Source: the human T2T-CHM13v2.0 reference genome, Homo sapiens
Direction: 5' to 3'
DNA length: 64,000 bases
NCBI GenBank assembly: GCA_009914755.4
Contig: CP086569.2
Location: 61,824,001 to 61,888,000 of the forward strand
Below, piece after piece: positions 1-64,000 of this stretch (its first letter is position 1; each line of letters opens with the position of its first letter). Made by a program: the position numbers and the translations under genes. The notes beneath the pieces are model-generated. The model worked only from the letters and a program-made list of their open reading frames with translations, made no database searches and was not told the DNA's origin.

Positions 1-11
1 AATGGAATTGA

Positions 12-31300: not shown

Positions 31301-31910
31301 ATGGAATTGAATGGAATGGAATGGAGTAGAGTGAAATGGAATCGAGTCACAAGGAATGGACAGGAATAGAACGGTCTCGAATTGAATGGAATCGTATGGA
31401 ATGGAATTCAACGGAATGGAATGGACAGCCACGGAATGGAATGCACTCGAAAGCAATGGACTCGAAACTAATGGACTGGAATCGAATGGACTCGACTGGT
31501 ACGGACTCCAATGGAATGGAATCGAATGGAATTGAATCGAACGGAATGGACTCGAAGTGATAAGAGTGCAATGGAAAGGTCTCGAATGGAATGGAAATTA
31601 ATGGAATGGAATGGAATCGAATGAAATGGAGTCAAAAGGAATGGAATCGAATGGCAAGAAATCGAATGTAATGGAATCACAAGGAATGGATGTGAACGGA
31701 ACGGAATGGAATGGAATCAAAAGGAATGGAATCGAATGGAATGGACTCGAATGGAAATGACTCGAATAGAATGGAATTCAACAAAATAGAATCAAATGTA
31801 ATGGAATGGAATGGAAAGGAATCGAAACGAAAGGAATGGAGACAGATGGAATGGAATAGAACAGAGAGCAATGGTATAGAATGGAATGGAATCATATGGA
31901 ATGGAATTGA
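28351..31910 (+). repeat. HOR copy 9, 3560 bp, class B
   Basis: 121-aa ORF at 29680. MYGIEQ at 28998. Confidence 0.9.
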
Positions 31911-34900: not shown

Positions 34901-35430
34901 ATTGAATGGAATCGTATGGAATGGAATTCAACGGAATGGAATGGACAGCCACGGAATGGAATGCACTCGAAAGCAATGGACTCGAAACTAATGGACTGGA
35001 ATCGAATGGACTCGACTGGTACGGACTCCAATGGAATGGAATCGAATGGAATGGAATCGAACGGAATGGACTCGAAGTGATAAGAGTGCAATGGAAAGGT
35101 CTCGAATGGAATGGAAATTAATGGAATGGAATGGAATCGAATGAAATGGAGTCAAAAGGAATGGAATCGAATGGCAAGAAATCGAATGTAATGGAATCAC
35201 AAGGAATGGATGTGAACGGAACGGAATGGAATGGAATCAAAAGGAATGGAATCGAATGGAATGGACACGAATGGAAATGACTCGAATAGAATGGAATTCA
35301 ATAAAATACAATCAAATGTAATGGAATGGAATGGAAAGGAATCGAAACGAAAGGAATGGAGACAGATGGAATGGAATGGAACAGAGAGCAATGGTATATA
35401 ATGGAATGGAATCATATGGAATGGAATTGA
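31911..35430 (+). repeat. HOR copy 10, 3520 bp, class C
   Basis: 15-bp deletion junction at ~33198 (ORFs at 32919-33200 and 33184-33366). IGKDWN variant at 33225. Confidence 0.9.
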
Positions 35431-38400: not shown

Positions 38401-38990
38401 ATGGAGTAGAGTGAAATGGAATCGAGTCACAAGGAATGGACAGGAATAGAACGGTCTCGAATTGAATGGAATCGTATGGAATGGAATTCAACGGAATGGA
38501 ATGGACAGCCACGGAATGGAATGCACTCGAAAGCAATGGACTCGAAACTAATGGACTGGAATCGAATGGACTCGACTGGTACGGACTCCAATGGAATGGA
38601 ATCGAATGGAATTGAATCGAACGGAATGGACTCGAAGTGATAAGAGTGCAATGGAAAGGTCTCGAATGGAATGGAAATTAATGGAATGGAATGGAATCGA
38701 ATGAAATGGAGTCAAAAGGAATGGAATCGAATGGCAAGAAATCGAATGTAATGGAATCACAAGGAATGGATGTGAACGGAACGGAATGGAATGGAATCAA
38801 AAGGAATGGAATCGAATGGAATGGACTCGAATGGAAATGACTCGAATAGAATGGAATTCAACAAAATAGAATCAAATGTAATGGAATGGAATGGAAAGGA
38901 ATCGAAACGAAAGGAATGGAGACAGATGGAATGGAATAGAACAGAGAGCAATGGTATAGAATGGAATGGAATCATATGGAATGGAATTGA
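35431..38990 (+). repeat. HOR copy 11, 3560 bp, class B
   Basis: 121-aa ORF at 36760. MYGIEQ at 36078. Confidence 0.9.
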
Positions 38991-41900: not shown

Positions 41901-42510
41901 ATGGAATTGAATGGAATGGAATGGAGTAGAGTGAAATGGAATCGAGTCACAAGGAATGGACAGGAATAGAACGGTCTCGAATTGAATGGAATCGTATGGA
42001 ATGGAATTCAACGGAATGGAATGGACAGCCACGGAATGGAATGCACTCGAAAGCAATGGACTCGAAACTAATGGACTGGAATCGAATGGACTCGACTGGT
42101 ACGGACTCCAATGGAATGGAATCGAATGGAAGGGAATCGAACGGAATGGACTCGAAGTGATAAGAGTGCAATGGAAAGGTCTCGAATGGAATGGAAATTA
42201 ATGGAATGGAATGGAATCGAATGAAATGGAGTCAAAAGGAATGGAATCGAATGGCAAGAAATCGAATGTAATGGAATCACAAGGAATGGATGTGAACGGA
42301 ACGGAATGGAATGGAATCAAAAGGAATGGAATCGAATGGAATGGACTCGAATGGAAATGACTCGAATAGAATGGAATTCAACAAAATAGAATCAAATGTA
42401 ATGGAATGGAATGGAAAGGAATCGAAACGAAAGGAATGGAGACAGATGGAATGGAATAGAACAGAGAGCAATGGTATAGAATGGAATGGAATCATATGGA
42501 ATGGAATTGA
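38991..42510 (+). repeat. HOR copy 12, 3520 bp, class C
   Basis: 15-bp deletion junction at ~40278 (ORFs at 39999-40280 and 40264-40446). IGKDWN variant at 40305. Confidence 0.9.
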
Positions 42511-45500
42511 ATGGAATGGAATAATATGAAATGGAATGGAAAGGAATGGAATGCACTTGAATTAAATGGACTGGAATGGAATGGACTCGAACGGAGTGGA
42601 ATGGAAAGGATTGAAATAGAATGGAATGGACTCCTTTGGAATCGTCTAGTATGCAATGCAAACGACTGGCAGGGAATCAAAAGGAATGTAATCGAATGGA
42701 TTGGACTGGAATACAATGGACTCGAATACATTGGAAACGGAATGCAATGGAATGGAATGGAATAGTATGGAATGGAACGGAAAGGAATGAAGTAGAATGG
42801 ACTAGAGTGGAATGGAATGGACTCGAAAGCAATGGACTGGAATGGAACGATCTTGAATGGACCGGAATCAAACGGAACGGAATGCAATGCAAGGCAATCA
42901 AATGGAATGGAATAAAAGAGAATGAAAGAGAATCAAATGCAATTGAATCGAATGGAATCGAATGGATTGGAAAGGAATAGAATGGAATGGAATGGAATTG
43001 ACTCAAATGGAATGGACTAGAACGGAATGGAGTCGAATGGAAGGCAAAGGAATGGAATCTATTGGAATGGACTGTAATGGAATGGCATGGAAGGGATTGG
43101 AATGGACTCGAATGGAAAGGACTGCAATAGAAAGGATTCGAATGGAATGAAAAAGAATTGAATGGAATAGAACAGAATGGAATCAAATCGAATGAAATGG
43201 AATGGAATAGAAAGGAATGGAATGAAATGGAATGGAAAGGATTCAAATGGAATGCGATCAAATGGAATGCAATCGAATGGAATGGAATCGAACGGAATGG
43301 AATAAAATGGAAGGAAACTGGCAAGAAATGGAATCGAAATGAATGGAGGGTTATGGAACGGACTCCAAAGGAATTGAATGTAATAGAATGGAGTGGAGTG
43401 GACTCGAATATAATGGACTGGAATGGAATGGAATCACATGGAATGGGAACGAATGGAATGGAATGGAAAGGAATGGAATCGAATGGAAAGGAATCAAATG
43501 GAAGGGAATGAAATTGAATCAACAGGAATGGAAGGGAATAGAATAGACTGTAATGGAATGGACTCGAATAGAATGGACACGAATGCTCAAATTGGATGGA
43601 CTCGAATGGAATGGAAACGAAAGGAATGTCATCGAATGGAATTGAATCGATTGGAATGAAATGGCATAGAATGGAGTGGAATGAAATGGAATTGAATCGA
43701 AAGGAAAGGAAGCGAATGGACTGAAATGAAATGGAATGGAATTGAATGGAAAGTAATGCAATGGAATAGAATGGAACGAAATTTCACGGAATGGAATCAA
43801 AACAATGGAATATAATCAAATGGAATGGAATGGAATGGAAAGGAATTGAATGGAATAGATTGGATAGGAAAGGATTGGAATGCAATGGAATGGAAAGGAC
43901 TCGAATTTCATGAAACGGAATGGAATGAATTGGAATGGAATGGACTCGAATGGAATGGAATGTCATGGAATGGCATCAAATGGAATGGAATCAAATGGAA
44001 TGGCATCGAATGCAATGTAATGTTATGGAATGGAATGGAATGTATTGGAATGGAATGTCCTCTAATGGAATGGATTCGAGTGGAATGGAATCGAATATAA
44101 TGGAGTCGAATGAAATGGAATTGAAAGGAATGGGATCGAATAGAATGGAATATACTGGAATGTAATGTAATGAATTCGAATGTAATTGACTGGAATGGAA
44201 TGTACATGAATGGAATGTAATCGAATGGAAAGTAATCCAATGAAATAGAATCTAATGCAATAAAACCGACTCAAATGGAATAGAATGTAATGGAATGGAG
44301 TGCAGTGCAATGGAATGGAATGGAATGGAATGCAATGGAGTGGAATGGAATGGAATGGGATGGAATGGTATGGAATGGATAGTAAAGGACTGGAGTGAAA
44401 TGGACTGTAAAGGAATGGACTCCAATTGAAAGGGCTCGAAAGGAATGGAGTCAAATGGAATGGTCTGGAATGGAATGAACTCGAATGTAATGCAATCCAA
44501 TAGAATGGAATCGAATGGAATGGAATATAAAGAAATGGAATCGACGAGAATGGAAACAGATGGAATGGAATTGAAAGGAATGGAATTGAATGGAATGGGC
44601 ACGAATGGAATGAAATTGTATGGAATAGAAGAGAATAGAATGGAATGCAATGGATAAGAAAGGAATGGATTGGAATGGAAGGGAATGTAGTGTAATGGAC
44701 TGGCATGGAATAAACTGGAATGCTACGGTCTCAAATGGAATAAAAATGTATGGAATGGAATGCCATGAAACGGAATCGAATGTCATAGAATGTAATGGAA
44801 TGCAAAGAAATGGACTCCAAAATCATTGACTGGAAAGGCTGGGTGTCGAAAGGAATTGACTCCAATGGAATGGAATCGAATGGAATGGAAGTGAATAGAA
44901 TCGAACTAAATCGAATGGAATGGAATTGATAGGAACGGAATGGAAAGGAATGGAATGATTTGGCATGGAATGGAATCGAATGGACTCGAATGGAATGGAA
45001 TGGAATGCAATGGAATGGAATGTATTAGAATGTAGTGAACTTTAATGGAATGAACTCGAATGGATTCGACTGGAATGGAATGTTCTGGAAGTGAATGGAC
45101 TCCAATGGAATGGATTCAAAAGGAATGGAATCGAAGGGAATGGAATCTAATGGAATGGAATTAAATGGAAATGAATCAAATCGAATAGCACGGAATTGAA
45201 CTGAATGGAATCGAATGCAATGGAATCTAATGAAACGGAAAGGAAAGGAATGGAATGGCATGGAATGGGCTGGAATGGAATGGAATCGAAACGAATGGAA
45301 TGGAATCGAACTGAAGAGACTGGAATGGAATGCACTGGCATGGAAGGGATTTTAATGGAACGTTCTTCAAAAGACTGGAATCGAATGGAATGGAATTGAA
45401 TGGAACGGATATAGAGTGAAATGGAATTGAATGTAATGGAATGGAGTAGAGTGAAATGGAATCGAGTCACTAGGATTGGACAGGAATAGAACGGTCTCGA

Positions 45501-45990
45501 ATTGAATGGAATCGTATGGAATGGAATTCAACGGAATGGAATGGACAGCCACGGAATGGAATGCACTCGAATGCAATGGACTCGAAACTAATGGACTGGA
45601 ATCGAATGGAATGGAATCGAACGGAATGGAATCGAAGTGAAAAGAGTGCAATGGAAAGGTCTCGAATGGAATGGAAATTAATGGAATGGAATGGAATCGA
45701 ATGAAATGGAGTCAAAAGGAATGGAATCGAATGGCAAGAAATCGAATGTAATGGAATCACAAGGAATGGATGTGAACGGAACGGAATGGAATGGAATCAA
45801 AAGGAATGGAATCGAATGGAATGGACTCGAATGGAAATGACTAGCATAGAATGGAATTCAACAAAATAGAATCAAATGTAATGGAATGGAATGGAAAGGA
45901 ATCGAAACGAAAGGACTGGAGACAGATGGAATGGAATGGAACAGAGAGCAATGGTATATAATGGAATGGAATCATATGGAATGGAATTGA
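42511..45990 (+). repeat. HOR copy 13, 3480 bp, hybrid: class C head (15-bp deletion at ~43798) and family-2 (D) tail from ~45.15 kb, including the 40-bp deletion at ~45606
   Basis: C markers at 43519-43800, 43784-43966 and 43825 (IGKDWN). D markers appear from 45151 (ggaattaaatggaaatgaatcaaatcg) and at 45025 (MPFHSFPF...SVQFRAIRFDSFPFN). 3480 = 3535 - 15 - 40. Confidence 0.88.
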
Positions 45991-48900
45991 ATGGAATGGA
46001 ATAATATGAAATGGAATGGAAAGGAATGGAATGCACTTGAATTAAATGGACTGGAATGGAATGGACTCGAACGGAGTGGAATGGAAAGGATTGAAATAGA
46101 ATGGAATGGACTCCTTTGGAATGGTCTAGTATGCAATGCAAACGACTGGCAGGGAATCAAAAGGGATGTAATCGAATGGATTGGACTGGAATACAATGGA
46201 CTCGAATACATTGGAAACGGAATGCAATGGAATGGAATGGAATAGTATGGAATGGAACGGAAAGGAATGAAGTAGAATGGACTAGAGTGGAATGGAATGG
46301 ACTCGAAAGCAATGGACTGGAATGGAACGATCTTGAATGGACCGGAATCAAACGGAACGGAATGCAATGCAAGGCAATCAAATGGAATGGAATAAAAGAG
46401 AATGAAAGAGAATCAAATGGAATTGAATCGAATGGAATCGAACGGATTGGAAAGGAATAGAATGGAATGGAATGGAATTGACTCAAATGGAATGGACTAG
46501 AACGGAATGGAGTCCAATGCAAGGCAAAGGAATGGAATCTATTGGAATGGACTGTAATGGAATGGCATGGAAGGGATTGGAATGGACTCGAATGGAAAGG
46601 ACTGCAATAGAAAGGATTCGAATGGAATGAAAAAGAATTGAATGGAATAGAACAGAATGGAATCAAATCGAATGAAATGGAATGGAATAGAAAGGAATGG
46701 AATGAAATGGAATGGAAAGGATTCAAATGGAATGCAATCGAATGGAATGCAATCGAATGGAATGGAATCGAACGGAATGGAATAAAATGGAAGGAAACTG
46801 GCAAGAAATGGAATCGAAATGAATGGAGTGTTATGGAACGGACTCCAAAGGAATTGAATGTAATAGAATGGAGTGGAGTGGACTCGAATATAATGGACTG
46901 GAATGGAATGGAATCACATGGAATGGGAACGAATGGAATGGAATGGAAAGGAATGGAATCGAATGGAAAGGAATCAAATGGAAGGGAATGAAATTGAATC
47001 AACAGGAATGGAAGGGAATAGAATAGACTGTAATGGAATGGACTCGAATAGAATGGACACGAATGCTCAAATTGGATGGACTCGAATGGAATGGAAACGA
47101 ATGGAATGTCATCCAATGGAATTGAATCGATTGGAATGAAATGGCATAGAATGGAGTGGAATGAAATGGAATTGAATCGAAAGGAAAGGAAGCGAATGGA
47201 CTGAAATGAAATGGAATGGAATTGAATGGAAAGTAATGCAATGCAATAGAATGGAACGAAATTTCACGGAATGGAATCAAACAGAATGGAATCAAATCAA
47301 TGGAATATAATCAAATGGAATGGAATGGAATGGAAAGGAATGGAATGGAATAGATTGGATAGGAAGGGATTGGAATGCAATGGAATGGAAAGGACTCGAA
47401 TTTCATGAAACGGAATGGAATGAATTGGAATGGAATGGACTCGAATGGAATGGAATGTCATGGAATGGCATCAAATGGAATGGAATCAAATGGAATGGCA
47501 TCGAATGCAATGGAATGTTATGGAATGGAATGGAATGTATTGGAATGGAATGTCCTCTAATGGAATGGATTCGAGTGGAATGGAATCGAATATAATGGAG
47601 TCGAATGAAATGGAATTGAAAGGAATGGGATCGAATAGAATGGAATATACTGGAATGTAATGTAATGAAGTCGAATGTAATTGACTGGAATGGAATGTAC
47701 ATGAATGGAATGTAATCGAATGGAAAGTAATCCAATGAAATAGAATCTAATGCAATAAAACCGACTCAAATGGAATAGAATGTAATGGAATGGAGTGCAG
47801 TGCAATGGAATGGAATGGAATGGAATGCAATGGAGTGGAATGGAATGGAATGGGATGGAATGGTATGGAATGGATAGTAAAGGACTGGAGTGAAATGGAC
47901 TGTAAAGGAATGGACTCCAATTGAAAGGGCTCGAAAGGAATGGAGTCAAATGGAATGGTCTGGAATGGAATGAACTCGAATGTAATGCAATCCAATAGAA
48001 TGGAATCGAATGGAATGGAATATAAAGAAATGGAATCGACGAGAATGGAAACAGATGGAATGGAATTGAAAGGAATGGAATTGAATGGAATGGGCACGAA
48101 TGGAATGAAATTGTATGGAATAGAAGAGAATAGAATGGAATGCAATGGATAAGAAAGGAATGGATTGGAATGGAAGGGAATGTAGTGTAATGGACTGGCA
48201 TGGAATAAACTGGAATGCTACGGTCTCAAATGGAATAAAAATGTATGGAATGGAATGCCATGAAACGGAATCGAACGTCATAGAATGTAATGGAATGCAA
48301 AAAAATGGACTCCAAAATCATTGACTGGAAAGGCTGGGTGTCGAAAGGAATTGACTCCAATGGAATGGAATCGAATGGAATGGAAGTGAATAGAATCGAA
48401 CTAAATCGAATGGAATGGAATTGATAGGAACGCAATGGAAAGGAATGGAATGATTTGGCATGGAATGGAATCGAATGGACTCGAATGGAATGGAATGGAA
48501 TGCAATGGAATGGAATGTATTAGAATGTAGTGAACTTTAATGGAATGAACTCGAATGGATTCGACTGGAATGGAAGGTTCTGGAAGTGAATGGACTGAAA
48601 TGGAATGGATTCAAAAGGAATGGAATCGAAGGGAATGGAATCTAATGGAATGGAATTAAATGGAAAGGAATCAAATCGAATAGCACGGAATTGAACTGAA
48701 TGGAATCGAATGCAATGGAATCTAATGAAACGGAAAGGAAAGGAATGGAATGGGATGGAATGGGCTGGAATGGAATGGAATCGAAACGAATGGAATGGAA
48801 TTGAACTGAAGAGACTGGAATGGAATGCACTGGCATGGAAGGGATTTTAATGGAACGTTCTTGAAAAGACTGGAATCGAATGGAATGGAATTGAATGGAA

Positions 48901-49485
48901 CGGATATAGAGTCAAATGGAATTGCATGGAATGGAATGGAGTAGAGTGAAATGGAATCGAGTCAATAGGAATGGACAGGAATAGAACGGTCTCGAATTGA
49001 ATGGAATCGTATGGAATGGAATTCAACGGAATGGAATGGACAGCCACGGAATGGAATGCACTCGAATGCAATGGACTCGAAACTAATGGACTGGAATCGA
49101 ATGGAATGGAATCGAACGGAATGGAATCGAAGTGAAAAGAGTGCAATGGAAAGGTCTCGAATGGAATGGAAATTAATGGAATGGAATGGAATCGAATGAA
49201 ATGGAGTCAAAAGGAATGGAATCGAATGGCAAGAAATCGAATGTAATGGAATCACAAGGAATGGATGTGAACGGAACGGAATGGAATGGAATCAAAAGGA
49301 ATGGAATTGAATGGAATGGACTCGAATGGAAATGACTAGCATAGAATGGAATTCAACAAAATAGAATCAAATGTAATGGAATGGAATGGAAAGGAATCGA
49401 AACGAAAGGAATGGAGACAGATGGAATGGAATGGAACAGAGAGCAATGGTATATAATGGAATGGAATCATATGGAATGGAATTGA
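45991..49485 (+). repeat. HOR copy 14, 3495 bp, family 2 (D1; 40-bp deletion at ~49096-49115)
   Basis: RDV/QKGCN variants at 45991 and 46101. MEWNGKEWNG at 47320. The 319-aa minus-strand ORF at 46157-47116 is a stop-loss artefact. Confidence 0.88.
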
Positions 49486-52400
49486 ATGGAATGGAATAAT
49501 ATGAAATGGAATGGAAAGGAATGGAATGCACTTGAATTAAATGGACTGGAATGGAATGGACTCGAACGGAGTGGAATGGAAAGGATTGAAATAGAATGGA
49601 ATGGACTCCTTTGGAATGGTCTAGTATGCAATGCAAACGACTGGCAGGGAATCAAAAGGGATGTAATCGAATGGATTGGACTGGAATACAATGGACTCGA
49701 ATACATTGGAAACGGAATGCAATGGAATGGAATGGAATAGTATGGAATGGAACGGAAAGGAATGAAGTAGAATGGACTAGAGTGGAATGGAATGGACTCG
49801 AAAGCAATGGACTGGAATGGAACGATCTTGAATGGACCGGAATCAAACGGAACGGAATGCAATGCAAGGCAATCAAATGGAATGGAATAAAAGAGAATGA
49901 AAGAGAATCAAATGGAATTGAATCGAATGGAATCGAACGGATTGGAAAGGAATAGAATGGAATGGAATGGAATTGACTCAAATGGAATGGACTAGAACGG
50001 AATGGAGTCCAATGCAAGGCAAAGGAATGGAATCTATTGGAATGGACTGTAATGGAATGGCATGGAAGGGATTGGAATGGACTCGAATGGAAAGGACTGC
50101 AATAGAAAGGATTCGAATGGAATGAAAAAGAATTGAATGGAATAGAACAGAATGGAATCAAATCGAATGAAATGGAATGGAATAGAAAGGAATGGAATGA
50201 AATGGAATGGAAAGGATTCAAATGGAATGCAATCGAATGGAATGCAATCGAATGGAATGGAATCGAACGGAATGGAATAAAATGGAAGGAAACTGGCAAG
50301 AAATGGAATCGAAATGAATGGAGTGTTATGGAACGGACTCCAAAGGAATTGAATGTAATAGAATGGAGTGGAGTGGACTCGAATATAATGGACTGGAATG
50401 GAATGGAATCACATGGAATGGGAACGAATGGAATGGAATGGAAAGGAATGGAATCGAATGGAAAGGAATCAAATGGAAGGGAATGAAATTGAATCAACAG
50501 GAATGGAAGGGAATAGAATAGACTGTAATGGAATGGACTCGAATAGAATGGACACGAATGCTCAAATTGGATGGAGTCGAATGGAATGGAAACGAACGGA
50601 ATGTCATCGAATGGAATTGAATCGATTGGAATGAAATGGCATAGAATGGAGTGGAATGAAATGGAATTGAATCGAAAGGAAAGGAAGCGAATGGACTGAA
50701 ATGAAATGGAATGGAATTGAATGGAAAGTAATGCAATGCAATAGAATGGAACGAAATTTCACGGAATGGAATCAAACAGAATGGAATCAAATCAATGGAA
50801 TATAATCAAATGGAATGGAATGGAATGGAAAGGAATGGAATGGAATAGATTGGATAGGAAGGGATTGGAATGCAATGGAATGGAAAGGACTCGAATTTCA
50901 TGAAACGGAATGGAATGAATTGGAATGGAATGGACTCGAATGGAATGGAATGTCATGGAATGGCATAGAATGGAATGGAATCAAATGGAATGGCATCGAA
51001 TGCAATGGAATGTTATGGAATGGAATGGAATGTATTGGAATGGAATGTCCTCTAATGGAATGGATTCGAGTGGAATGGAATCGAATATAATGGAGTCGAA
51101 TGAAATGGAATTGAAAGGAATGGGATCGAATAGAATGGAATATACTGGAATGTAATGTAATGAAGTCGAATGTAATTGACTGGAATGGAATGTACATGAA
51201 TGGAATGTAATCGAATGGAAAGTAATCCAATGAAATAGAATCTAATGCAATAAAACCGACTCAAATGGAACAGAATGTAATGGAATGGAGTGCAGTGCAA
51301 TGGAATGGAATGGAATGGAATGCAATGGAGTGGAATGGAATGGAATGGGATGGAATGGTATGGAATGGATAGTAAAGGACTGGAGTGAAATGGACTGTAA
51401 AGGAATGGACTCCAATTGAAAGGGCTCGAAAGGAATGGAGTCAAATGGAATGGTCTGGAATGGAATGAACTCGAATGTAATGCAATCCAATAGAATGGAA
51501 TCGAATGGAATGGAATATAAAGAAATGGAATCGACGAGAATGGAAACAGATGGAATGGAATTGAAAGGAATGGAATTGAATGGAATGGGCACGAATGGAA
51601 TGAAATTGTATGGAATAGAAGAGAATAGAATGGAATGCAATGGATAAGAAAGGAATGGATTGGAATGGAAGGGAATGTAGTGTAATGGACTGGCATGGAA
51701 TAAACTGGAATGCTACGGTCTCAAATGGAATAAAAATGTATGGAATGGAATGCCATGAAACGGAATCGAATGTCATAGAATGTAATGGAATGTAAAGAAA
51801 TGGACTCCAAAATCATTGACTGGAAAGGCTGGGTGTCGAAAGGAATTGACTCCAATAGAATGGAATCGAATGGAATGGAAGTGAATAGAATCGAACTAAA
51901 TCGAATGGAATGGAATTGACAGGAACGGAATGGAAAGGAATGGAATGATTTGGCATGAAATGGAATCGAATGGACTCGAATGGAATTGAATGGAATGCAA
52001 TGGAATGGAATGTATTAGAATGTAGAAACTTTAATGGAATGAACTCGAATGGATTCGACTGGAATGGAATGTTCTGGAAGTGAATGGACTCCAATGGAAT
52101 GGAATCAAAATGAATGGAATCGAAGGGAATGGAATCTAATGGAATGGAATTAAATGGAAAGGAATCAAATCGAATAGCACGGAATTGAACTGAATGGAAT
52201 CGAATGCAATGGAATCTAATGAAACGGAAAGGAAAGGAATGGAATGGCATGGAATGGGCTGGAATGGAATGGAATCGAAACGAATGGAATGGAATCGAAC
52301 TGAAGAGACTGGAATGGAATGCACTGGCATGGAAGGGATTTTAATGGAACGTTTTTGAAAAGACTGGAATCGAATGGAATGGAATTGAATGGAACGGATA

Positions 52401-53039
52401 TAGAGTCAAATGGAATTGAATGGAATGGAATGGAGTAGAGTGAAATGGAATCGAGTCACTAGGAATGGACAGGAATAGAACGGTCTCGAATTGAATGGAA
52501 TCGTATGGAATGGAATTCAACGGAATGGAATGGACAGCCACGGAATGGAATGGACAGCCACGGAATGGAATGCACTCGAATGCAATGGACTCGAAACTAA
52601 TGGACTGGAATCGAATGGACTCGACTGGTATGGACTCCAATGGAATGGAATCGAATGGAATGGAATCCAACAGAATGGACTCGAAGTGAAAAGAGTGCAA
52701 TGGAAAGGTCTCGAATGGAATGGAAATTAATGGAATGGAATGGAATCGAATGAAATGGAGTCAAAAGGAATGGAATCGAATGGCAAGAAATCGAATGTAA
52801 TGGAATCACAAGGAATGGATGTGAACGGAACGGAATGGAATGGAATCAAAAGGAATGGAATCGAATGGAATGGACTCGAATGGACATGACTCGAATAGAA
52901 TGGAATTCAACAAAATAGAATCAAATGTAATGGAATGGAATGGAAAGGAATCGAAACGAAAGGAATGGAGACAGATGGAATGGAATGGAACAGAGAGCAA
53001 TGGTATAGAATGGAATGGAATCATATGGAATGGAATTGA
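49486..53039 (+). repeat. HOR copy 15, 3554 bp, family 2 (D2; 20-bp tandem duplication at 52521-52560; no 40-bp deletion)
   Basis: cggaatggaatggacagcca occurs twice in tandem at 52521-52560. 145-aa ORF at 51813-52250 (MPFHSFPF...). Confidence 0.88.
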
Positions 53040-56000
53040 ATGGAATGGAATAATATGAAATGGAATGGAAAGGAATGGAATGCACTTGAATTAAATGGAC
53101 TGGAATGGAATGGACTCGAACGGAGTGGAATGGAAAGGATTGAAATAGAATGGAATGGACTCCTTTGGAATGGTCTAGTAGGCCATGCAAACGACTGTCA
53201 GGGAATCAAAAGGAATGTAATCGAATGGATTGGACTGGAATACAATGGACTCGAATACATTGGAAACGGAATGCAATGGAATGGAATGGAATAGTATGGA
53301 ATGGAACGGAAAGGAATGAAGTAGAATGGACTAGAGTGGAAAGGAATGGACTCGAAAGCAATGGACTGGAATGGAACGATCTTGAATGGACCGGAATCAA
53401 ACGGAACGGAATGCAATGCAAGGCAATCAAATGGAATGGAATAAAAGAGAATGAAAGAGAATCAAATGGAATTGAATCGAATGGAATCGAACGGATTGGA
53501 AAGGAATAGAATGGAATGGAATGGAATTGACTCAAATGGAATGGACTAGAACGGAATGGAGTCCAATGCAAGGCAAAGGAATGGAATCTATTGGAATGGA
53601 CTGTAATGGAATGGCATGGAAGGGATTGGAATGGACTCGAATGGAAAGGACTGCAATAGAAAGGATTCGAATGGAATGAAAAAGAATTGAATGGAATAGA
53701 ACAGAATGGAATCAAATCGAATGAAATGGAATGGAATAGAAAGGAATGGAATGAAATGGAATGGAAAGGATTCAAATGGAATGCAATCGAATGGAATGCA
53801 ATCGAATGGAATGGAATCGAACGGAATGGAATAAAATGGAAGGAAACTGGCAAGAAATGGAATCGAAATGAATGGAGTGTTATGGAACGGACTCCAAAGG
53901 AATTGAATGTAATAGAATGGAGTGGAGTGGACTCGAATATAATGGACTGGAATGGAATGGAATCACATGGAATGGGAACGAATGGAATGGAATGGAAAGG
54001 AATGGAATCGAATGGAAAGGAATCAAATGGAAGGGAATGAAATTGAATCAACAGGAATGGAAGGGAATAGAATAGACTGTAATGGAATGGACTCGAATAG
54101 AATGGACACGAATGCTCAAATTGGATGGAGTCGAATGGAATGGAAACGAATGGAATGTCATCGAATGGAATTGAATCGATTGGAATGAAATGGCATAGAA
54201 TGGAGTGGAATGAAATGGAATTGAATCGAAAGGAAAGGAAGCGAATGGACTGAAATGAAATGGAATGGAATTGAATGGAAAGTAATGCAATGCAATAGAA
54301 TGGAACGAAATTTCACGGAATGGAATCAAACAGAATGGAATCAAATCAATGGAATATAATCAAATGGAATGGAATGGAATGGAAAGGAATTGAATGGAAT
54401 AGATTGGATAGGAAGGGATTGGAATGCAATGGAATGGAAAGGACTCGAATTTCATGAAACGGAATGGAATGAATTGGAATGGAATGGACTCGAATGGAAT
54501 GGAATGTCATGGAATGGCATCAAATGGAATGGAATCAAATGGAATGGCATCGAATGCAATGGAATGTTATGGAATGGAATGGAATGTATTGGAATGGAAT
54601 GTCCTCTAATGGAATGGATTCGAGTGGAATGGAATCGAATATAATGGAGTCGAATGAAATGGAATTGAAAGGAATGGGATCGAATAGAATGGAATATACT
54701 GGAATGTAATGTAATGAAGTCGAATGTAATTGACTGGAATGGAATGTACATGAATGGAATGTAATCGAATGGAAAGTAATCCAATGAAATAGAATCTAAT
54801 GCAATAAAACCGACTCAAATGGAACAGAATGTAATGGAATGGAGTGCAGTGCAATGGAATGGAATGGAATGGAATGCAATGGAGTGGAATGGAATGGAAT
54901 GGGATGGAATGGTATGGAATGGATAGTAAAGGACTGGAGTGAAATGGACTGTAAAGGAATGGACTCCAATTGAAAGGGCTCGAAAGGAATGGAGTCAAAT
55001 GGAATGGTCTGGAATGGAATGAACTCGAATGTAATGCAATCCAATAGAATGGAATCGAATGGAATGGAATATAAAGAAATGGAATCGACGAGAATGGAAA
55101 CAGATGGAATGGAATTGAAAGGAATGGAATTGAATGGAATGGGCACGAATGGAATGAAATTGTATGGAATAGAAGAGAATAGAATGGAATGCAATGGATA
55201 AGAAAGGAATGGATTGGAATGGAAGGGAATGTAGTGTAATGGACTGGCATGGAATAAACTGGAATGCTACGGTCTCAAATGGAATAAAAATGTATGGAAT
55301 GGAATGCCATGAAACGGAATCGAATGTCATAGAATGTAATGGAATGTAAAGAAATGGACTCCAAAATCATTGACTGGAAAGGCTGGGTGTCGAAAGGAAT
55401 TGACTCCAATAGAATGGAATCGAATGGAATGGAAGTGAATAGAATCGAACTAAATCGAATGGAATGGAATTGACAGGAACGGAATGGAAAGGAATGGAAT
55501 GATTTGGCATGAAATGGAATCGAATGGACTCGAATGGAATTGAATGGAATGCAATGGAATGGAATGTATTAGAATGTAGAAACTTTAATGGAATGAACTC
55601 GAATGGATTCGACTGGAATGGAATGTTCTGGAAGTGAATGGACTCCAATGGAATGGAATCAAAATGAATGGAATCGAAGGGAATGGAATCTAATGGAATG
55701 GAATTAAATGGAAAGGAATCAAATCGAATAGCACGGAATTGAACTGAATGGAATCGAATGCAATGGAATCTAATGAAACGGAAAGGAAAGGAATGGAATG
55801 GCATGGAATGGGCTGGAATGGAATGGAATCGAAACGAATGGAATGGAATCGAACTGAAGAGACTGGAATGGAATGCACTGGCATGGAAGGGATTTTAATG
55901 GAACGTTTTTGAAAAGACTGGAATCGAATGGAATGGAATTGAATGGAACGGATATAGAGTCAAATGGAATTGAATGGAATGGAATGGAGTAGAGTGAAAT

Positions 56001-56593
56001 GGAATCGAGTCACTAGGAATGGACAGGAATAGAACGGTCTCGAATTGAATGGAATCGTATGGAATGGAATTCAACGGAATGGAATGGACAGCCACGGAAT
56101 GGAATGGACAGCCACGGAATGGAATGCACTCGAATGCAATGGACTCGAAACTAATGGACTGGAATCGAATGGACTCGACTGGTATGGACTCCAATGGAAT
56201 GGAATCGAATGGAATGGAATCCAACAGAATGGACTCGAAGTGAAAAGAGTGCAATGGAAAGGTCTCGAATGGAATGGAAATTAATGGAATGGAATGGAAT
56301 CGAATGAAATGGAGTCAAAAGGAATGGAATCGAATGGCAAGAAATCGAATGTAATGGAATCACAAGGAATGGATGTGAACGGAACGGAATGGAATGGAAT
56401 CAAAAGGAATGGAATCGAATGGAATGGACTCGAATGGACATGACTCGAATAGAATGGAATTCAACAAAATAGAATCAAATGTAATGGAATGGAATGGAAA
56501 GGAATCGAAACGAAAGGAATGGAGACAGATGGAATGGAATGGAACAGAGAGCAATGGTATAGAATGGAATGGAATCATATGGAATGGAATTGA
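53040..56593 (+). repeat. HOR copy 16, 3554 bp, family 2 (D2; 20-bp tandem duplication at 56075-56114; GGCC patch at 53181)
   Basis: VGHANDCQ variant at 53040 (gtaggccatgcaaacgactgtcagg). 145-aa ORF at 55367-55804 identical to the copy-15 ORF. Confidence 0.88.
53181..53198. other. Clustered three-substitution patch that creates a GGCC (HaeIII) site. It is present only in copies 16 and 17 (second site at 56735-56738).
   Basis: taggccatgcaaacgactgtcag here, against tatgcaatgcaaacgactggcag in the other 16 copies. Confidence 0.85.
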
Positions 56594-59500
56594 ATGGAAT
56601 GGAATAATATGAAATGGAATGGAAAGGAATGGAATGCACTTGAATTAAATGGACTGGAATGGAATGGACTCGAACGGAGTGGAATGGAAAGGATTGAAAT
56701 AGAATGGAATGGACTCCTTTGGAATGGTCTAGTAGGCCATGCAAACGACTGTCAGGGAATCAAAAGGAATGTAATCGAATGGATTGGACTGGAATACAAT
56801 GGACTCGAATACATTGGAAACGGAATGCAATGGAATGGAATGGAATAGTATGGAATGGAACGGAAAGGAATGAAGTAGAATGGACTAGAGTGGAAAGGAA
56901 TGGACTCGAAAGCAATGGACTGGAATGGAACGATCTTGAATGGACCGGAATCAAACGGAACGGAATGCAATGCAAGGCAATCAAATGGAATGGAATAAAA
57001 GAGAATGAAAGAGAATCAAATGCAATTGAATCGAATGGAATCGAATGGATTGGAAAGGAATAGAATGGAATGGAATGGAATTGACTCAAATGGAATGGAC
57101 TAGAACGGAATGGAGTCGAAAGGAAGGCAAAGGAATGGAATCTATTGGAATGGACTGTAATGGAATGGCATGGAAGGGATTGGAATGGACTCGAATGGAA
57201 AGGACTGCAATAGAAAGGATTCGAATGGAATGAAAAAGAATTGAATGGAATAGAACAGAATGGAATCAAATCGAATGAAATGGAATGGAATAGAAAGGAA
57301 TGGAATGAAATGGAATGGAAAGGATTCAAATGGAATGCAATCGAATGGAATGCAATCGAATGGAATGGAATCGAACGGAATGGAATAAAATGGAAGGAAA
57401 CTGGCAAGAAATGGAATCGAAATGAATGGAGTGTTATGGAACGGACTCCAAAGCAATTGAATGTAATAGAATGGAGTGGAGTGGACTCGAATATAATGGA
57501 CTGGAATGGAATGGAATCACATGGAATGGGAACGAATGGAATGGAATGGAAAGGAATGGAATCGAATGGAAAGGAATCAAATGGAAGGGAATGAAATTGA
57601 ATCAACAGGAATGGAAGGGAATAGAATAGACTGTAATGGAATGGACTCGAATAGAATGGACACGAATGCTCAAATTGGATGGACTCGAATGGAATGGAAA
57701 CGAAAGGAATGTCATCGAATGGAATTGAATCGATTGGAATGAAATGGCATAGAATGGAGTGGAATGAAATGGAATTGAATCGAAAGGAAAGGAAGCGAAT
57801 GGACTGAAATGAAATGGAATGGAATTGAATGGAAAGTAATGCAATGGAATAGAATGGAACGAAATTTCACGGAATGGAATCAAACAGAATGGAATCAAAT
57901 CAATGGAATATAATCAAATGGAATGGAATGGAATGGAAAGGAATTGAATGGAATAGATTGGATAGGAAGGGATTGGAATGCAATGGAATGGAAAGGACTC
58001 GAATTTCATGAAACGGAATGGAATGAATTGGAATGGAATGGACTCGAATGGAATGGAATGTCATGGAATGGCATCAAATGGAATGGAATCAAATGGAATG
58101 GCATCGAATGCAATGGAATGTTATGGAATGGAATGGAATGTATTGGAATGGAATGTCCTCTAATGGAATGGATTCGAGTGGAATGGAATCGAATATAATG
58201 GAGTCGAATGAAATGGAATTGAAAGGAATGGGATCGAATAGAATGGAATATACTGGAATGTAATGTAATGAAGTCGAATGTAATTGACTGGAATGGAATG
58301 TACATGAATGGAATGTAATCGAATGGAAAGTAATCCAATGAAATAGAATCTAATGCAATAAAACCGACTCAAATGGAATAGAATGTAATGGAATGGAGTG
58401 CAGTGCAATGGAATGGAATGGAATGGAATGCAATGGAGTGGAATGGAATGGAATGGGATGGAATGGTATGGAATGGATAGTAAAGGACTGGAGTGAAATG
58501 GACTGTAAAGGAATGGACTCCAATTGAAAGGGCTCGAAAGGAATGGAGTCAAATGGAATGGTCTGGAATGGAATGAACTCGAATGTAATGCAATCCAATA
58601 GAATGGAATCGAATGGAATGGAATATAAAGAAATGGAATCGACGAGAATGGAAACAGATGGAATGGAATTGAAAGGAATGGAATTGAATGGAATGGGCAC
58701 GAATGGAATGAAATTGTATGGAATAGAAGAGAATAGAATGGAATGCAATGGATAAGAAAGGAATGGATTGGAATGGAAGGGAATGTAGTGTAATGGACTG
58801 GCATGGAATAAACTGGAATGCTACGGTCTCAAATGGAATAAAAATGTATGGAATGGAATGCCATGAAACGGAATCGAATGTCATAGAATGTAATGGAATG
58901 CAAAGAAATGGACTCCAAAATCATTGACTGGAAAGGCTGGGTGTCGAAAGGAATTGACTCCAATGGAATGGAATCGAATGGAATGGAAGTGAATAGAATC
59001 GAACTAAATCGAATGGAATGGAATTGATAGGAACGGAATGGAAAGGAATGGAATGATTTGGCATGGAATGGAATCGAATGGACTCGAATGGAATGGAATG
59101 GAATGCAATGGAATGGAATGTATTAGAATGTAGTGAACTTTAATGGAATGAACTCGAATGGATTCGACTGGAATGGAATGTTCTGGAAGTGAATGGACTG
59201 CAATGGAATGGATTCAAAAGGAATGGAATCGAAGGGAATGGAATCTAATGGAATGGAATTAAATGGAAAGGAATCAAATCGAATAGCAGGGAATTGAACT
59301 GAATGGAATCGAATGCAATGGAATCTAATGAAACGGAAAGGAAAGGAATGGAATGGCATGGAATGGGCTGGAATGGAATGGAATCGAAACGAATGGAATG
59401 GAATCGAACTGAAGAGACTGGAATGAAATGCACTGGCATGGAAGGGATTTTAATGGAACGTTCTTGAAAAGACTGGAATCGAATGGAATGGAATTGAATG

Positions 59501-60088
59501 GAACGGATATAGAGTCAAATGGAATTGAATGGAATGGAATGGAGTAGAGTGAAATGGAATCGAGTCACTAGGAATGGACAGGAATAGAACGGTCTCGAAT
59601 TGAATGGAATCGTATGGAATGGAATTCAACGGAATGGAATGGACAGCCACGGAATGGAATGCACTCGAATGCAATGGACTCGAAACTAATGGACTGGAAT
59701 CGAATGGAATGGAATCGAACGGAATGGACTCGAAGTGAAAAGAGTGCAATGGAAAGGTCTCGAATGGAATGGAAATTAATGGAATGGAATGGAATCGAAT
59801 GAAATGGAGTCAAAAGGAATGGAATCGAATGGCAAGAAATCGAATGTAATGGAATCACAAGGAATGGATGTGAACGGAACGGAATGGAATGGAATCAAAA
59901 GGAATGGAATCGAATGGAATGGACTCGAATGGAAATGACTCGAATAGAATGGAATTCAACAAAATAGAATCAAATGTAATGGAATGGAATGGAAAGGAAT
60001 CGAAACGAAAGGAATGGAGACAGATGGAATGGAATGGAACAGAGAGCAATGGTATAGAATGGAATGGAATCATATGGAATGGAATTGA
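56594..60088 (+). repeat. HOR copy 17, 3495 bp, mosaic: family-2 head (GGCC patch at 56735), family-1-like middle (~57.0-59.0 kb), family-2 tail with the 40-bp deletion at ~59700
   Basis: VGHANDCQ at 56594. Family-1 markers at 57045 (MDWKGIEW), 57506 (TRMEWKRKECHRMEL) and 57923 (KELNG). D markers at 59123 (SVQFPAIRFDSFPFN). Confidence 0.85.
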
Positions 60089-63000
60089 ATGGAATGGAAT
60101 AATATGAAATGGAATGGAAAGGAATGGAATGCACTTGAATTAAATGGACTGGAATGGAATGGACTCGAACGGAGTGGAATGGAAAGGATTGAAATAGAAT
60201 GGAATGGACTCCTTTGGAATGGTCTAGTATGCAATGCAAACGACTGGCAGGGAATCAAAAGGAATGTAATCGAATGGATTGGACTGGAATACAATGGACT
60301 CGAATACATTGGAAACGGAATGCAATGGAATGGAATGGAATAGTATGGAATGGAACGGAAAGGAATGAAGTAGAATGGACTAGAGTGGAATGGAATGGAC
60401 TCGAAAGCAATGGACTGGAATGGAACGATCTTGAATGGACCGGAATCAAACGGAACGGAATGCAATGCAAGGCAATCAAATGGAATGGAATAAAAGAGAA
60501 TGAAAGAGAATCAAATGCAATTGAATCGAATGGAATCGAATGGATTGGAAAGGAATAGAATGGAATGGAATGGAATTGACTCCAATGGAATGGACTAGAA
60601 CGGAATGGAGTCGAATGGAAGGCAAAGGAATGGAATCTATTGGAATGGACTGTAATGGAATGGCATGGAAGGGATTGGAATGGACTCGAATGGAAAGGAC
60701 TGCAATAGAAAGGATTCTAATGGAATGAAAAAGAATTGAATGGAATAGAACAGAATGGAATCAAATCGAATGAAATGGAATGGAATAGAAAGGAATGGAA
60801 TGAAATGGAATGGAAAGGATTCAAATGGAATGCGATCAAATGGAATGCAATCGAATGGAATGGAATCGAACGGAATGGAATAAAATGGAAGGAAACTGGC
60901 AAGAAATGGAATCGAAATGAATGGAGGGTTATGGAACGGACTCCAAAGGAATTGAATGTAATAGAATGGAGTGGAGTGGACTCGAATATAATGGACTGGA
61001 ATGGAATGGAATCACATGGAATGGGAACGAATGGAATGGAATGGAAAGGAATGGAATCGAATGGAAAGGAATCAAATGGAAGGGAATGAAATTGAATCAA
61101 CAGGAATGGAAGGGAATAGAATAGACTGTAATGGAATGGACTCGAATAGAATGGACACGAATGCTCAAATTGGATGGACTCGAATGGAATGGAAACGAAA
61201 GGAATGTCATCGAATGGAATTGAATCGATTGGAATGAAATGGCATAGAATGGAGTGGAATCAAATGGAATTGAATCGAAAGGAAAGGAAGCGAATGGACT
61301 GAAATGAAATGGAATGGAATTGAATGGAAAGTAATGCAATGGAATAGAATGGAACGAAATTTCACGGAATGGAATCAAACAGAATGGAATCAAATCAATG
61401 GAATATAATCAAATGGAATGGAATGGAATGGAAAGGAATTGAATGGAATAGATTGGATAGGAAGGGATTGGAATGCAATGGAATGGAAAGGACTCGAATT
61501 TCATGAAACGGAATGGAATGAATTGGAATGGAATGGACTCGAATGGAATGGAATGTCATGGAATGGCATCAAATGGAATGGAATCAAATGGAATGGCATC
61601 GAATGCAATGGAATGTTATGGAATGGAATGGAATGTATTGGAATGGAATGTCCTCTAATGGAATGGATTCGAGTGGAATGGAATCGAATATAATGGAGTC
61701 GAATGAAATGGAATTGAAAGGAATGGGATCGAATAGAATGGAATATACTGGAATGTAATGTAATGAAGTCGAATGTAATTGACTGGAATGGAATGTACAT
61801 GAATGGAATGTAATCGAATGGAAAGTAATCCAATGAAATAGAATCTAATGCAATAAAACCGACTCAAATGGAATAGAATGTAATGGAATGGAGTGCAGTG
61901 CAATGGAATGGAATGGAATGGAATGCAATGGAGTGGAATGGAATGGAATGGGATGGAATGGTATGGAATGGATAGTAAAGGACTGGAGTGAAATGGACTG
62001 TAAAGGAATGGACTCCAATTGAAAGGGCTCGAAAGGAATGGAGTCAAATGGAATGGTCTGGAATGGAATGAACTCGAATGTAATGCAATCCAATAGAATG
62101 GAATCGAATGGAATGGAATATAAAGAAATGGAATCGACGAGAATGGAAACAGATGGAATGGAATTGAAAGGAATGGAATTGAATGGAATGGGCACGAATG
62201 GAATGAAATTGTATGGAATAGAAGAGAATAGAATGGAATGCAATGGATAAGAAAGGAATGCATTGGAATGGAAGGGAATGTAGTGTAATGGACTGGCATG
62301 GAATAAACTGGAATGCTACGGTCTCAAATGGAATAAAAATGTATGGAATGGAATGCCATGAAACGGAATCGAATGTCATAGAATGTAATGGAATGCAAAT
62401 AAATGGACTCCAAAATCATTGACTGGAAAGGCTGGGTGTCGAAAGGAACTGACTCCAATGGAATGGAATCGAATGGAATGGAAGTGAATAGAATCGAACT
62501 AAATCGAATGGAATGGAATTGATAGGAACGGAATGGAAAGGAATGGAATGATTTGGCATGGAATGGAATCGAATGGACTCGAATGGAATGGAATGGAATG
62601 CAATGGAATGGAATGTATTAGAATGTAGTGAACTTTAATGGAATGAACTCGAATGGATTCGACTGGAATGGAATGTTCTGGAAGTGAATGGACTGCAATG
62701 GAATGGATTCAAAAGGAATGGAATCGAAGGGAATGGAATCTAATGGAATGGAATTAAATGGAAAGGAATCAAATCGAATAGCAGGGAATTGAACTGAATG
62801 GAATCGAATGCAATGGAATCTAATGAAACGGAAAGGAAAGGAATGGAATGGCATGGAATGGGCTGGAATGGAATGGAATCGAAACGAATGGAATGGAATC
62901 GAACTGAAGAGACTGGAATGAAATGCACTGGCATGGAAGGGATTTTAATGGAACGTTCTTGAAAAGACTGGAATCGAATGGAATGGAATTGAATGGAACG

Positions 63001-63583
63001 GATATAGAGTCAAATGGAATTGAATGGAATGGAATGGAGTAGAGTGAAATGGAATCGAGTCACTAGGAATGGACAGGAATAGAACGGTCTCGAATTGAAT
63101 GGAATCGTATGGAATGGAATTCAACGGAATGGAATGGACAGCCACGGAATGGAATGCACTCGAATGCAATGGACTCGAAACTAATGGACTGGAATCGAAT
63201 GGAATGGAATCGAACGGAATGGACTCGAAGTGAAAAGAGTGCAATGGAAAGGTCTCGAATGGAATGGAAATTAATGGAATGGAATGGAATCGAATGAAAT
63301 GGAGTCAAAAGGAATGGAATCGAATGGCAAGAAATCGAATGTAATGGAATCACAAGGAATGGATGTGAACGGAACGGAATGGAATGGAATCAAAAGGAAT
63401 GGAATCGAATGGAATGGACTCGAATGGAAATGACTCGAATAGAATGGAATTCAACAAAATAGAATCAAATGTAATGGAATGGAATGGAAAGGAATCGAAA
63501 CGAAAGGAATGGAGACAGATGGAATGGAATGGAACAGAGAGCAATGGTATAGAATGGAATGGAATCATATGGAATGGAATTGA
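60089..63583 (+). repeat. HOR copy 18, 3495 bp, family-1-like head, family-2 tail with the 40-bp deletion at ~63195
   Basis: Family-1-type anchor ORF at 60089 and MDWKGIEW at 60540. D-tail marker at 62618. IPFDSTPF variant at 61097 shared with copies 3 and 5. Confidence 0.85.
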
Positions 63584-64000
63584 ATGGAATGGAATAATAT
63601 GAAATGGAATGGAAAGGAATGGAATGCACTTGAATTAAATGGACTGGAATGGAATGGACTCGAACGGAGTGGAATGGAAAGGATTGAAATAGAATGGAAT
63701 GGACTCCTTTGGAATGGTCTAGTATGCAATGCAAACGACTGGCAGGGAATCAAAAGGAATGTAATCGAATGGATTGGACTGGAATACAATGGACTCGAAT
63801 ACATTGGAAACGGAATGCAATGGAATGGAATGGAATAGTATGGAATGGAACGGAAAGGAATGAAGTAGAATGGACTAGAGTGGAATGGAATGGACTCGAA
63901 AGCAATGGACTGGAATGGAACGATCTTGAATGGACCGGAATCAAACGGAACGGAATGCAATGCAAGGCAATCAAATGGAATGGAATAAAAGAGAATGAAA
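63584..64000 (+). repeat. HOR copy 19, partial (417 bp), family-1-like head
   Basis: Anchor ORF at 63584, identical to the copy-18 start. Confidence 0.85.

What the first reader, a model, noticed from the sequence alone, without database searches (positions are those of the whole stretch)
53170..53200. HaeIII (GGCC) site present in only 2 of 18 copies, created by a clustered substitution patch
The only GGCC in the window occurs at 53181-53184 and 56735-56738 (copies 16 and 17). It arises from three substitutions within 18 bp: tatgcaatgc to taggccatgc, and ctggcag to ctgtcag. A cluster of this kind suggests a converted tract from a diverged donor, not independent point mutations. DYZ1 was classically defined as a HaeIII repeat. 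The near-absence of the site here means that this block would largely escape HaeIII cutting, or that the DYZ1 assignment needs checking.
Basis: partly seen in the sequence, partly recalled or inferred. Interest (0 to 1): 0.5.

Follow-up and report, generated by a model that had tools for sequence, protein, structure and literature searches.

The report
New HaeIII site in variant DYZ1
Two neighbouring copies of a human DYZ1-type (HSat3A6) satellite repeat carry a newly arisen GGCC site, which is an ordinary private polymorphism copied once; the block resists HaeIII because the classical DYZ1 HaeIII site, 1.5-2 kb away, is mutated in all 18 copies.

Summary
GGCC occurs only at 53181 and 56735, and it is made by T>G and A>C (TATGCAATGC>TAGGCCATGC), with G>T 14 bp further on. 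The interpretation needs correcting in three ways.

(1) This is not the classical DYZ1 HaeIII site. A real 3,564-bp DYZ1 HaeIII unit (KF941192) puts the classical site (AGG|CCT) at window 2218 plus each period. There all 18 copies read TGGCAT. The new site is 1.5/2.07 kb away. At that position the DYZ1 reference and 44 public DYZ1 copies all lack GGCC, and no searched phrase from the other DYZ1 clone sequences contains the variant.

(2) The two copies are one event. They lie in a 2,500-bp stretch that is 100% identical at lag 3,554, so this is a one-unit duplication. That module carries 17 private derived substitutions over about 2.8 kb. Three of them within 18 bp is only marginally unusual (P about 0.06). 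No donor was found.

(3) The array belongs to the HSat3A6/DYZ1 family: the marker 24-mer occurs 17 times and the unit is about 3.5 kb. It is a divergent variant, 92.6-94% identical to canonical DYZ1. It lacks the canonical HaeIII/StuI and EcoRI sites and has new EcoRI and AvaII/HpaII sites. The same variant type occurs in other public human-derived contigs.

Verdict: an ordinary satellite polymorphism in an atypical, HaeIII-resistant DYZ1 block.

The parts
53181..53184 (.). New GGCC (HaeIII) site, copy 1, made by 53181 T>G and 53184 A>C. The linked 53198 G>T change (CTGGCAG>CTGTCAG) lies 14 bp downstream.
56735..56738 (.). New GGCC site, copy 2, with identical context. The linked G>T is at 56752.
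50969..53468 (.). First copy of a 2,500-bp stretch that is 100% identical to 54523-57022 (lag 3,554). It contains the patch.
54523..57022 (.). Second copy of the 2,500-bp identical stretch.
52520..52539 (.). 20-bp tandem duplication ACGGAATGGAATGGACAGCC, present only in the two GGCC-bearing units (second copy at 56074-56093). It is absent from the DYZ1 reference but present in public contig L020.
52631..53342 (.). Eight derived substitutions private to the two units: 52631, 52668, 52672, 52885, 53181, 53184, 53198, 53342. Nine more private substitutions of the same duplicated module lie at 50576-52111 (the same sites as 54130-55665).
55246..55249 (.). Homologue of the classical DYZ1 HaeIII/StuI site. 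It reads GGCA (context GGACTGGCATGG) instead of GGCC (GGACAGGCCTGG). The same state occurs in all 18 copies, starting at 2218, 5778, 9313, 12848, 16382, 19942, 23502, 27022, 30582, 34102, 37662, 41182, 44702, 48197, 51692, 55246, 58800, 62295.
1..64000 (+). Array of about 18 units (3,494-3,560 bp) of a GGAAT-derived higher-order repeat, an HSat3A6/DYZ1-like divergent variant. The + strand is the GGAAT strand, which is the reverse complement of the published TTCCA orientation.

Best explanation
The window is a block of a divergent variant of the human DYZ1 (HSat3A6) 3.5-kb higher-order satellite repeat. In this variant the classical HaeIII/StuI site at the unit boundary has been lost in every copy (AGGCCT > TGGCAT on the + strand), so the block is HaeIII-resistant as a whole. 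Separately, one unit lineage in the right-hand, more heterogeneous part of the block picked up private derived changes. These are 17 substitutions over about 2.8 kb, on a unit subtype that carries a 20-bp tandem duplication. Two of these substitutions, 3 bp apart, happen to create a new GGCC about 1.5/2.07 kb from the classical position. A one-unit (3,554-bp) unequal exchange, tandem duplication or long-tract conversion then copied at least 2.5 kb of this lineage into the neighbouring register, and that is why the site appears twice. Shown: the position of the classical site and its loss in 18/18 copies; the derived and private status of the patch; the 2.5-kb perfect identity; the family assignment and the divergence. 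Inferred: the mechanism of copying (unequal sister-chromatid exchange is the standard one for Yq12). Also inferred is whether the three close substitutions arose independently or in one complex event.
For: The reference unit was transcribed from PMC3925983 Additional file 1 (3,564 bp, one GGCC at the junction). The transcription is validated by 99.5-99.7% identity to independent public contigs L001 and L029. Window units are 92.6-94.0% identical to it. The HSat3A6 marker 24-mer occurs 17 times, and no marker of the 13 other HSat2/3 subfamilies is present. The classical-site homologue reads GGACTGGCATGG in 18/18 copies. In public DYZ1 contigs the same position is GGCC in 14 of 16 cases and recurs every 3,539-3,562 bp in L008. 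The patch position carries the majority state in the DYZ1 reference and lacks GGCC in 44/44 public copies; the variant strings are absent from the supplementary files holding the 8 clone sequences. There is a 2,500-bp identical run at lag 3,554. All 8 + 9 private substitutions and the 20-bp duplication are derived relative to the reference. Private-variant density in neighbouring unit lineages is similar at about 0.6-1%. Unequal exchange and tandem duplication are documented for Yq12.
Against: Three transversions within 18 bp is somewhat more clustered than uniform scatter predicts (P about 0.06). A single-event origin (multinucleotide mutation or micro-conversion) therefore remains open. The chromosome and species of origin cannot be read from the window. 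Human origin is inferred from 98.4-98.5% matches to contigs in public metagenome assemblies. The reference is a PCR clone, not a curated consensus.
Confidence: 0.78

Rival explanations
1. Short-tract gene conversion: the 18-bp patch was copied in one step from a diverged DYZ1-like donor elsewhere in the array or genome, and was then duplicated.
For: Three substitutions lie within 18 bp with P about 0.06. Clustered de novo SNVs consistent with intra-array gene conversion have been reported in Yq12 pedigrees, as 6 of 35 events (PMC13252187). One public canonical-type copy (L037) carries CTGTCAG alone, so that allele exists elsewhere.
Against: No sequence with the GGCC state or the full three-site haplotype occurs in the other 17 window copies, the reference unit, the searched clone phrases or the 43 public loci. 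Canonical DYZ1 carries the majority state. The patch is embedded in about 2.8 kb with 14 further private substitutions, so nothing marks it as a separate tract.
Confidence: 0.12
2. Single complex mutational event: one error-prone repair or template-switch event introduced the two or three close transversions at once on this unit lineage.
For: T>G and A>C are 3 bp apart and G>T is 14 bp further on, and all three are transversions. Other same-haplotype pairs 1-7 bp apart exist in the array, namely 52668/52672, 54521/54522, 54647/54648 and 55658/55665. Variable sites show an overall excess of 18-bp triples, 24 against 13 expected, P=0.004.
Against: This cannot be told apart from independent mutations in one sequence. 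The excess of close pairs is small, 41 against 34.9 expected, P=0.09.
Confidence: 0.3
3. Assembly artefact: the two GGCC-bearing units are a falsely duplicated or mis-polished unit in a long-read assembly of a near-identical array.
For: There is a perfect 2,500-bp identity between neighbours. Satellite arrays are prone to assembly errors.
Against: The two units differ at 22 positions outside the identical run, and other neighbours are even more similar (u06 and u08 differ by 1 mismatch). The private variants form a coherent haplotype, and the underlying unit subtype (20-bp duplication) is seen independently in L020.
Confidence: 0.04

Closest known systems
Canonical DYZ1 3,564-bp HaeIII unit (Nakahori-type; clone KF941192 from PMC3925983), equivalent to HSat3A6
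   Same: Both are derived from the GGAAT/TTCCA pentamer. Both have a higher-order unit of about 3.5 kb that is colinear over the whole unit. The HSat3A6 marker 24-mer occurs once per unit. The sequence around the finding's patch matches the window majority apart from one base, AATCGAC against AAACGAC.
   Different: Identity is only 92.6-94% (129 substitutions between the consensus and the reference, plus indels). The classical HaeIII/StuI site is lost in 18/18 units. The classical EcoRI site (reference position 36) is removed by a 20-bp deletion. There are two new EcoRI sites 330-390 bp apart and a new AvaII/HpaII site (GGACCGG) per unit.
Divergent or peripheral DYZ1 units in assembled Yq12 (T2T-Y, bioRxiv 10.1101/2022.12.01.518724; Hallast et al., bioRxiv 10.1101/2022.12.01.518658)
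   Same: These papers report that most units are above 98% identical to the consensus, with more divergent units at the periphery of arrays and of Yq12. They also report evolution by unequal exchange and tandem duplication. The window fits this picture as a divergent block with mosaic unit types and local duplications.
   Different: I could not place the window on any assembly, so a peripheral location is a guess. Hallast et al. used HaeIII virtual digestion to cut DYZ1 into units, with 3,569-bp fragments the most abundant. This block would not be cut into units by that procedure.
Clustered de novo SNVs and intra-array gene conversion in Yq12 (PMC13252187)
   Same: Closely spaced multi-SNV changes occur inside DYZ1/DYZ2 units.
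   Different: In that work a concordant donor copy is required to call conversion. No donor was found here in the material available.

Membership tests
DYZ1 / HSat3A6 | Built from diverged GGAAT/ATTCC pentamers | tested here: met
   There are 4,247 exact GGAAT, covering 33% of bases. GC is 0.39 with strong G>C and A>T skew throughout.
DYZ1 / HSat3A6 | Higher-order tandem unit of about 3.56 kb, colinear with the published unit | tested here: met
   Units are 3,494-3,560 bp. Each unit gives one full-length colinear blastn alignment to the 3,564-bp reference.
DYZ1 / HSat3A6 | HSat3A6-specific 24-mer TCGTTTCGATTCCTTTCCATTCCA (Altemose 2014, PMC4022460) | tested here: met
   It occurs 17 times on the minus strand. 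The marker 24-mers of the 13 other HSat2/3 subfamilies give 0 hits.
DYZ1 / HSat3A6 | One HaeIII site per unit at the unit boundary (the classical operational definition, the 3.4/3.56-kb HaeIII band) | tested here: not met
   The boundary homologue reads GGCA in 18/18 units. Public canonical DYZ1 contigs have GGCC there in 14/16 cases, with spacing of 3,539-3,562 bp.
DYZ1 / HSat3A6 | At least about 98% identity to the DYZ1 consensus, as in the bulk of Yq12 units (T2T-Y) | tested here: not met
   Identity to KF941192 is 92.6-94.0%. Most public DYZ1 contigs are 97-99.7% identical to it.
DYZ1 / HSat3A6 | Location on Yq12 and male specificity | not testable with these tools
   No human assembly is available. 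The only indirect evidence is that the same variant type occurs in public contigs L035, L020 and the end of L007.
Gene-conversion tract | A donor copy carrying all converted alleles with preserved spacing | tested here: not met
   There is no donor in the window, the reference, the searched clone phrases or the 43 public loci. The full source assembly was not available.

The most novel reading that the evidence does not exclude
The window may represent a discrete DYZ1-like subfamily that has not been explicitly described. It is HaeIII-minus and StuI-minus, has an EcoRI doublet of 3.16-3.19 + 0.33-0.39 kb, is AvaII/HpaII-plus, and is about 6% diverged. It may occupy a specific block, such as the periphery of Yq12 or a non-Yq12 locus. 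Such a block would have been invisible in the classical 3.4-kb HaeIII band, and HaeIII-based virtual digestion would not cut it into units. Its private sites, including the new GGCC, could serve as markers for tracing unequal-exchange history.
Probability: 0.2. Interest if true: 0.25.

Novelty: already known. Interest (0 to 1): 0.1.

Why it matters
It matters little biologically. This is a restriction-site polymorphism in a known satellite family, produced by mutation plus local duplication, the textbook mode of satellite evolution. There are two practical points. First, HaeIII does not define every DYZ1-type block: this one has lost the classical site in every unit, so pipelines that cut DYZ1 into units by virtual HaeIII digestion, and classical band-intensity estimates, would miss or mis-size such blocks. 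Second, restriction-site presence must be compared position by position with a reference, because the two GGCC sites here are not homologous to the classical one.

Tried and rejected
(1) I looked for a donor of the patch. The k-mers TAGGCCAT, AGGCCATG, GGCCATGC, ACTGTCAGG and others were searched in the window, the DYZ1 reference and 43 public loci. The only hits were L037 (CTGTCAG alone) and a chance GTAGGCCAT in the non-satellite part of L009.

(2) I tested whether canonical DYZ1 could be the donor. This is rejected, because the reference carries the majority allele at all 17 private sites.

(3) I first thought the 20-bp insertion in the two units might be an ancestral segment deleted in the others. 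This is rejected: it is a tandem duplication absent from the reference, although it is shared with public contig L020.

(4) A scan of viral contigs for the window-type boundary sequence gave 0 hits.

(5) The first blastn of the loci against the two references timed out and was repeated with megablast.

(6) I tried to place the window on a chromosome or region from the literature. Altemose 2014 lists HSat3A6 as 'Y, 7' but gives no text on chromosome 7. The location stays unresolved.

(7) Protein, RNA and structure tools were not used. The region is non-coding satellite and they would add nothing.

Full report
**1. What is in the window**

The whole 64 kb is compositionally uniform: GC is 0.39, with strong G>C and A>T skew. 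It is made of GGAAT-derived pentamers, with 4,247 exact GGAAT.

Restriction-site spacing and autocorrelation show a higher-order tandem repeat with units of 3,494-3,560 bp, about 18 copies in all. A MAFFT alignment of the 17 complete units shows 1-57 substitutions between any two units. There are two sectors:
- a homogeneous left part (u01-u11);
- a more heterogeneous right part (u12-u17) whose units are mosaics of segment types shared with neighbours in staggered register.

**2. The observation**

GGCC occurs only at 53181 and 56735. The homologous 36-mer occurs 19 times. Seventeen copies carry TATGCAATGC...CTGGCAG and two carry TAGGCCATGC...CTGTCAG.

**3. A real DYZ1 reference**

Additional file 1 of PMC3925983 prints the cloned 3,564-bp DYZ1 HaeIII units. 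I transcribed MZT1a-blood (KF941192). It is 3,564 bp long and has one GGCC, formed at the junction ...TTCCAGG|CCTGTCCA..., which is also a StuI site. It has one EcoRI site at position 36.

The transcription is validated by independent data. Human-derived contaminant contigs recovered from bacterial genome and metagenome collections match it at up to 99.5-99.7% (L001, L029).

**4. Where the classical HaeIII site maps**

The published strand (TTCCA) is the window's minus strand. The unit boundary maps to window 2218 plus each period. There all 18 copies read GGACTGGCATGG, where canonical DYZ1 reads GGACAGGCCTGG.

In public DYZ1 contigs this position is GGCC in 14 of 16 cases. In L008, part of a 55-kb contig, it recurs every 3,539-3,562 bp. 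This agrees with Hallast et al., whose virtual HaeIII digest of Yq12 DYZ1 gave 3,569-bp fragments as the most abundant class in 6 of 7 genomes.

So the block is HaeIII-resistant because the classical site is lost in every unit. It is not because only 2 of 18 units kept it.

**5. What the two GGCC sites are**

They lie at reference coordinates about 2074-2077. This is 1,489 bp from one boundary homologue and 2,065 bp from the other. At this position several sources agree:
- the reference carries the window's majority state;
- the variant strings are absent from the supplementary files holding the 8 clone sequences, and the canonical string was found in six of those sequences;
- none of 44 copies in 43 public loci has GGCC. 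Thirty-eight are canonical, 5 are window-type with AAACGAC, and 1 is canonical with CTGTCAG alone.

The site is therefore new, derived and so far private.

**6. One origin, copied once**

At lag 3,554 the window is 100% identical from 50969 to 53468, matching 54523-57022. This 2,500-bp run contains the patch.

Using the DYZ1 unit as outgroup, the duplicated module carries these private changes:
- 8 private derived substitutions at 52631-53342;
- 9 more at 50576-52111, which are the same sites as 54130-55665;
- a 1-bp deletion;
- a 20-bp tandem duplication at 52520-52539.

At all of these the reference shows the majority state.

The 20-bp duplication is also present in an independent public contig, L020, which is 98.4-98.5% identical to these two units. 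L020 carries none of the eight private substitutions tested. So the private substitutions arose on a pre-existing unit subtype.

The staggered sharing of segment types among u13-u17 is what repeated one-unit unequal exchanges produce. Unequal exchange, tandem duplication and sister-chromatid exchange are documented for Yq12.

**7. Is the 18-bp cluster special?**

Simulation gives these probabilities:
- P=0.058 for 3 of 8 sites within 18 bp in 823 bp;
- P=0.066 for 3 of 17 in 2,767 bp;
- P=0.003 only if the 8 are spread over a whole unit, which ignores the fact that the module itself is the cluster.

Variable sites in the array are mildly clustered in general, with 24 triples within 18 bp against 13 expected (P=0.004) and 41 close pairs against 34.9 (P=0.09).

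A single complex event or a micro-conversion is possible, and conversion-like SNV clusters are reported in Yq12 pedigrees. No donor was found, and canonical DYZ1 cannot be the donor.

**8. Family assignment**

The HSat3A6-specific 24-mer of Altemose 2014 occurs 17 times. The markers of the other 13 HSat2/3 subfamilies do not occur. Units are colinear with the DYZ1 unit but only 92.6-94.0% identical to it. Most public DYZ1 contigs are 97-99.7% identical to the reference and 92-95% to the window consensus. T2T-Y reports most units above 98% to consensus, with more divergence in peripheral blocks.

The window type is seen elsewhere:
- L035 is 98.8% identical to the window consensus;
- L020 is 97.6% identical to the window consensus;
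- the last 246 bp of L007 match at 242/246, including the TGGCAT boundary state and the 20-bp deletion that removes the classical EcoRI site.

The window is therefore a divergent member of the DYZ1/HSat3A6 family. It fails the classical HaeIII definition and the identity criterion. Its genomic location could not be tested.

**9. Verdict**

It is partly wrong: the two sites are not relics of the classical site, and there is no evidence for a converted tract.

It is a private restriction-site gain on one unit lineage, duplicated once, inside a variant DYZ1 block. Interest is low.

Noticed in passing
window 20764-42003: Two unit types (3,560 and 3,520 bp) alternate strictly. Identity at lag 7,080 is 99.88%, against about 80% ungapped at lag 3,520 or 3,560. 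This is a 7.08-kb dimeric super-repeat present three times.
   Followed up: partly
whole window (17 aligned units): Variation among units is rich in transversions: 44 transitions to 78 transversions. The window consensus against the DYZ1 reference gives 50 to 79. This is unlike the roughly 2:1 transition excess of ordinary human point mutation, despite the high CpG content. It may reflect exchange among diverged pentamers rather than simple point mutation.
   Followed up: no
window 360-366 plus each period (19 sites): Every unit has GGACCGG, an AvaII and HpaII/MspI site. The DYZ1 reference reads GGACTGG there and has no AvaII or HpaII site at all. This is a diagnostic marker of the variant, and it is a CpG.
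   Followed up: partly
window 2160-2200 (minus strand) and the EcoRI sites at 3040/3410 plus each period: The classical DYZ1 EcoRI site (reference position 36) is removed by a 20-bp deletion (ATGAATTCCATTCCATTCCA). Two new EcoRI sites per unit lie 330, 370 or 390 bp apart, which predicts 3.15-3.19 kb plus 0.33-0.39 kb EcoRI fragments. One unit has an extra EcoRI site at 44172.
   Followed up: partly
L020 (PKQM01003431.1), homologous to window 51899-53819 and 55453-57373: This independent public contig shares the 20-bp tandem duplication and the no-40-bp-deletion state of the two GGCC units. It has none of their private substitutions. The unit subtype therefore exists beyond this window.
   Followed up: yes
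L037 (JACSEC010000082.1), patch homologue at about 1844: A canonical-type DYZ1 copy (97.4% to the reference) carries CTGTCAG, the third patch substitution, without the GGCC changes. This is either recurrent mutation or an old shared allele.
   Followed up: partly
L005, L030 (1-737) and L017 (3997-4795): About 740-800 bp of DYZ1-like sequence (93% to the window type, 88% to canonical) abuts a different, CACTC-rich pentameric satellite with about 2.8-kb periodicity. This may be the Yq11/Yq12 transition repeats (DYZ18 and the 2.7/3.1-kb units of Hallast et al.).
   Followed up: no
L007 (OAUT01000082.1) 3701-3946: This contig is canonical DYZ1 for about 3.7 kb, with GGCC at 297. It then switches to the window type, with the TGGCAT boundary state and the EcoRI-removing deletion, matching 242/246. 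It is either a real junction between canonical and variant units or a short-read assembly chimera.
   Followed up: partly
window 45617-45656-equivalent (units u13, u14, u17): A 40-bp deletion (alignment columns 93-132 of the unit, the same sites as 52606-52645 in u15) is shared by u13, u14 and u17 but not by u15 and u16, which lie between them. This gives the 3,494/3,495-bp units and shows the mosaic, non-nested history of this sector.
   Followed up: no
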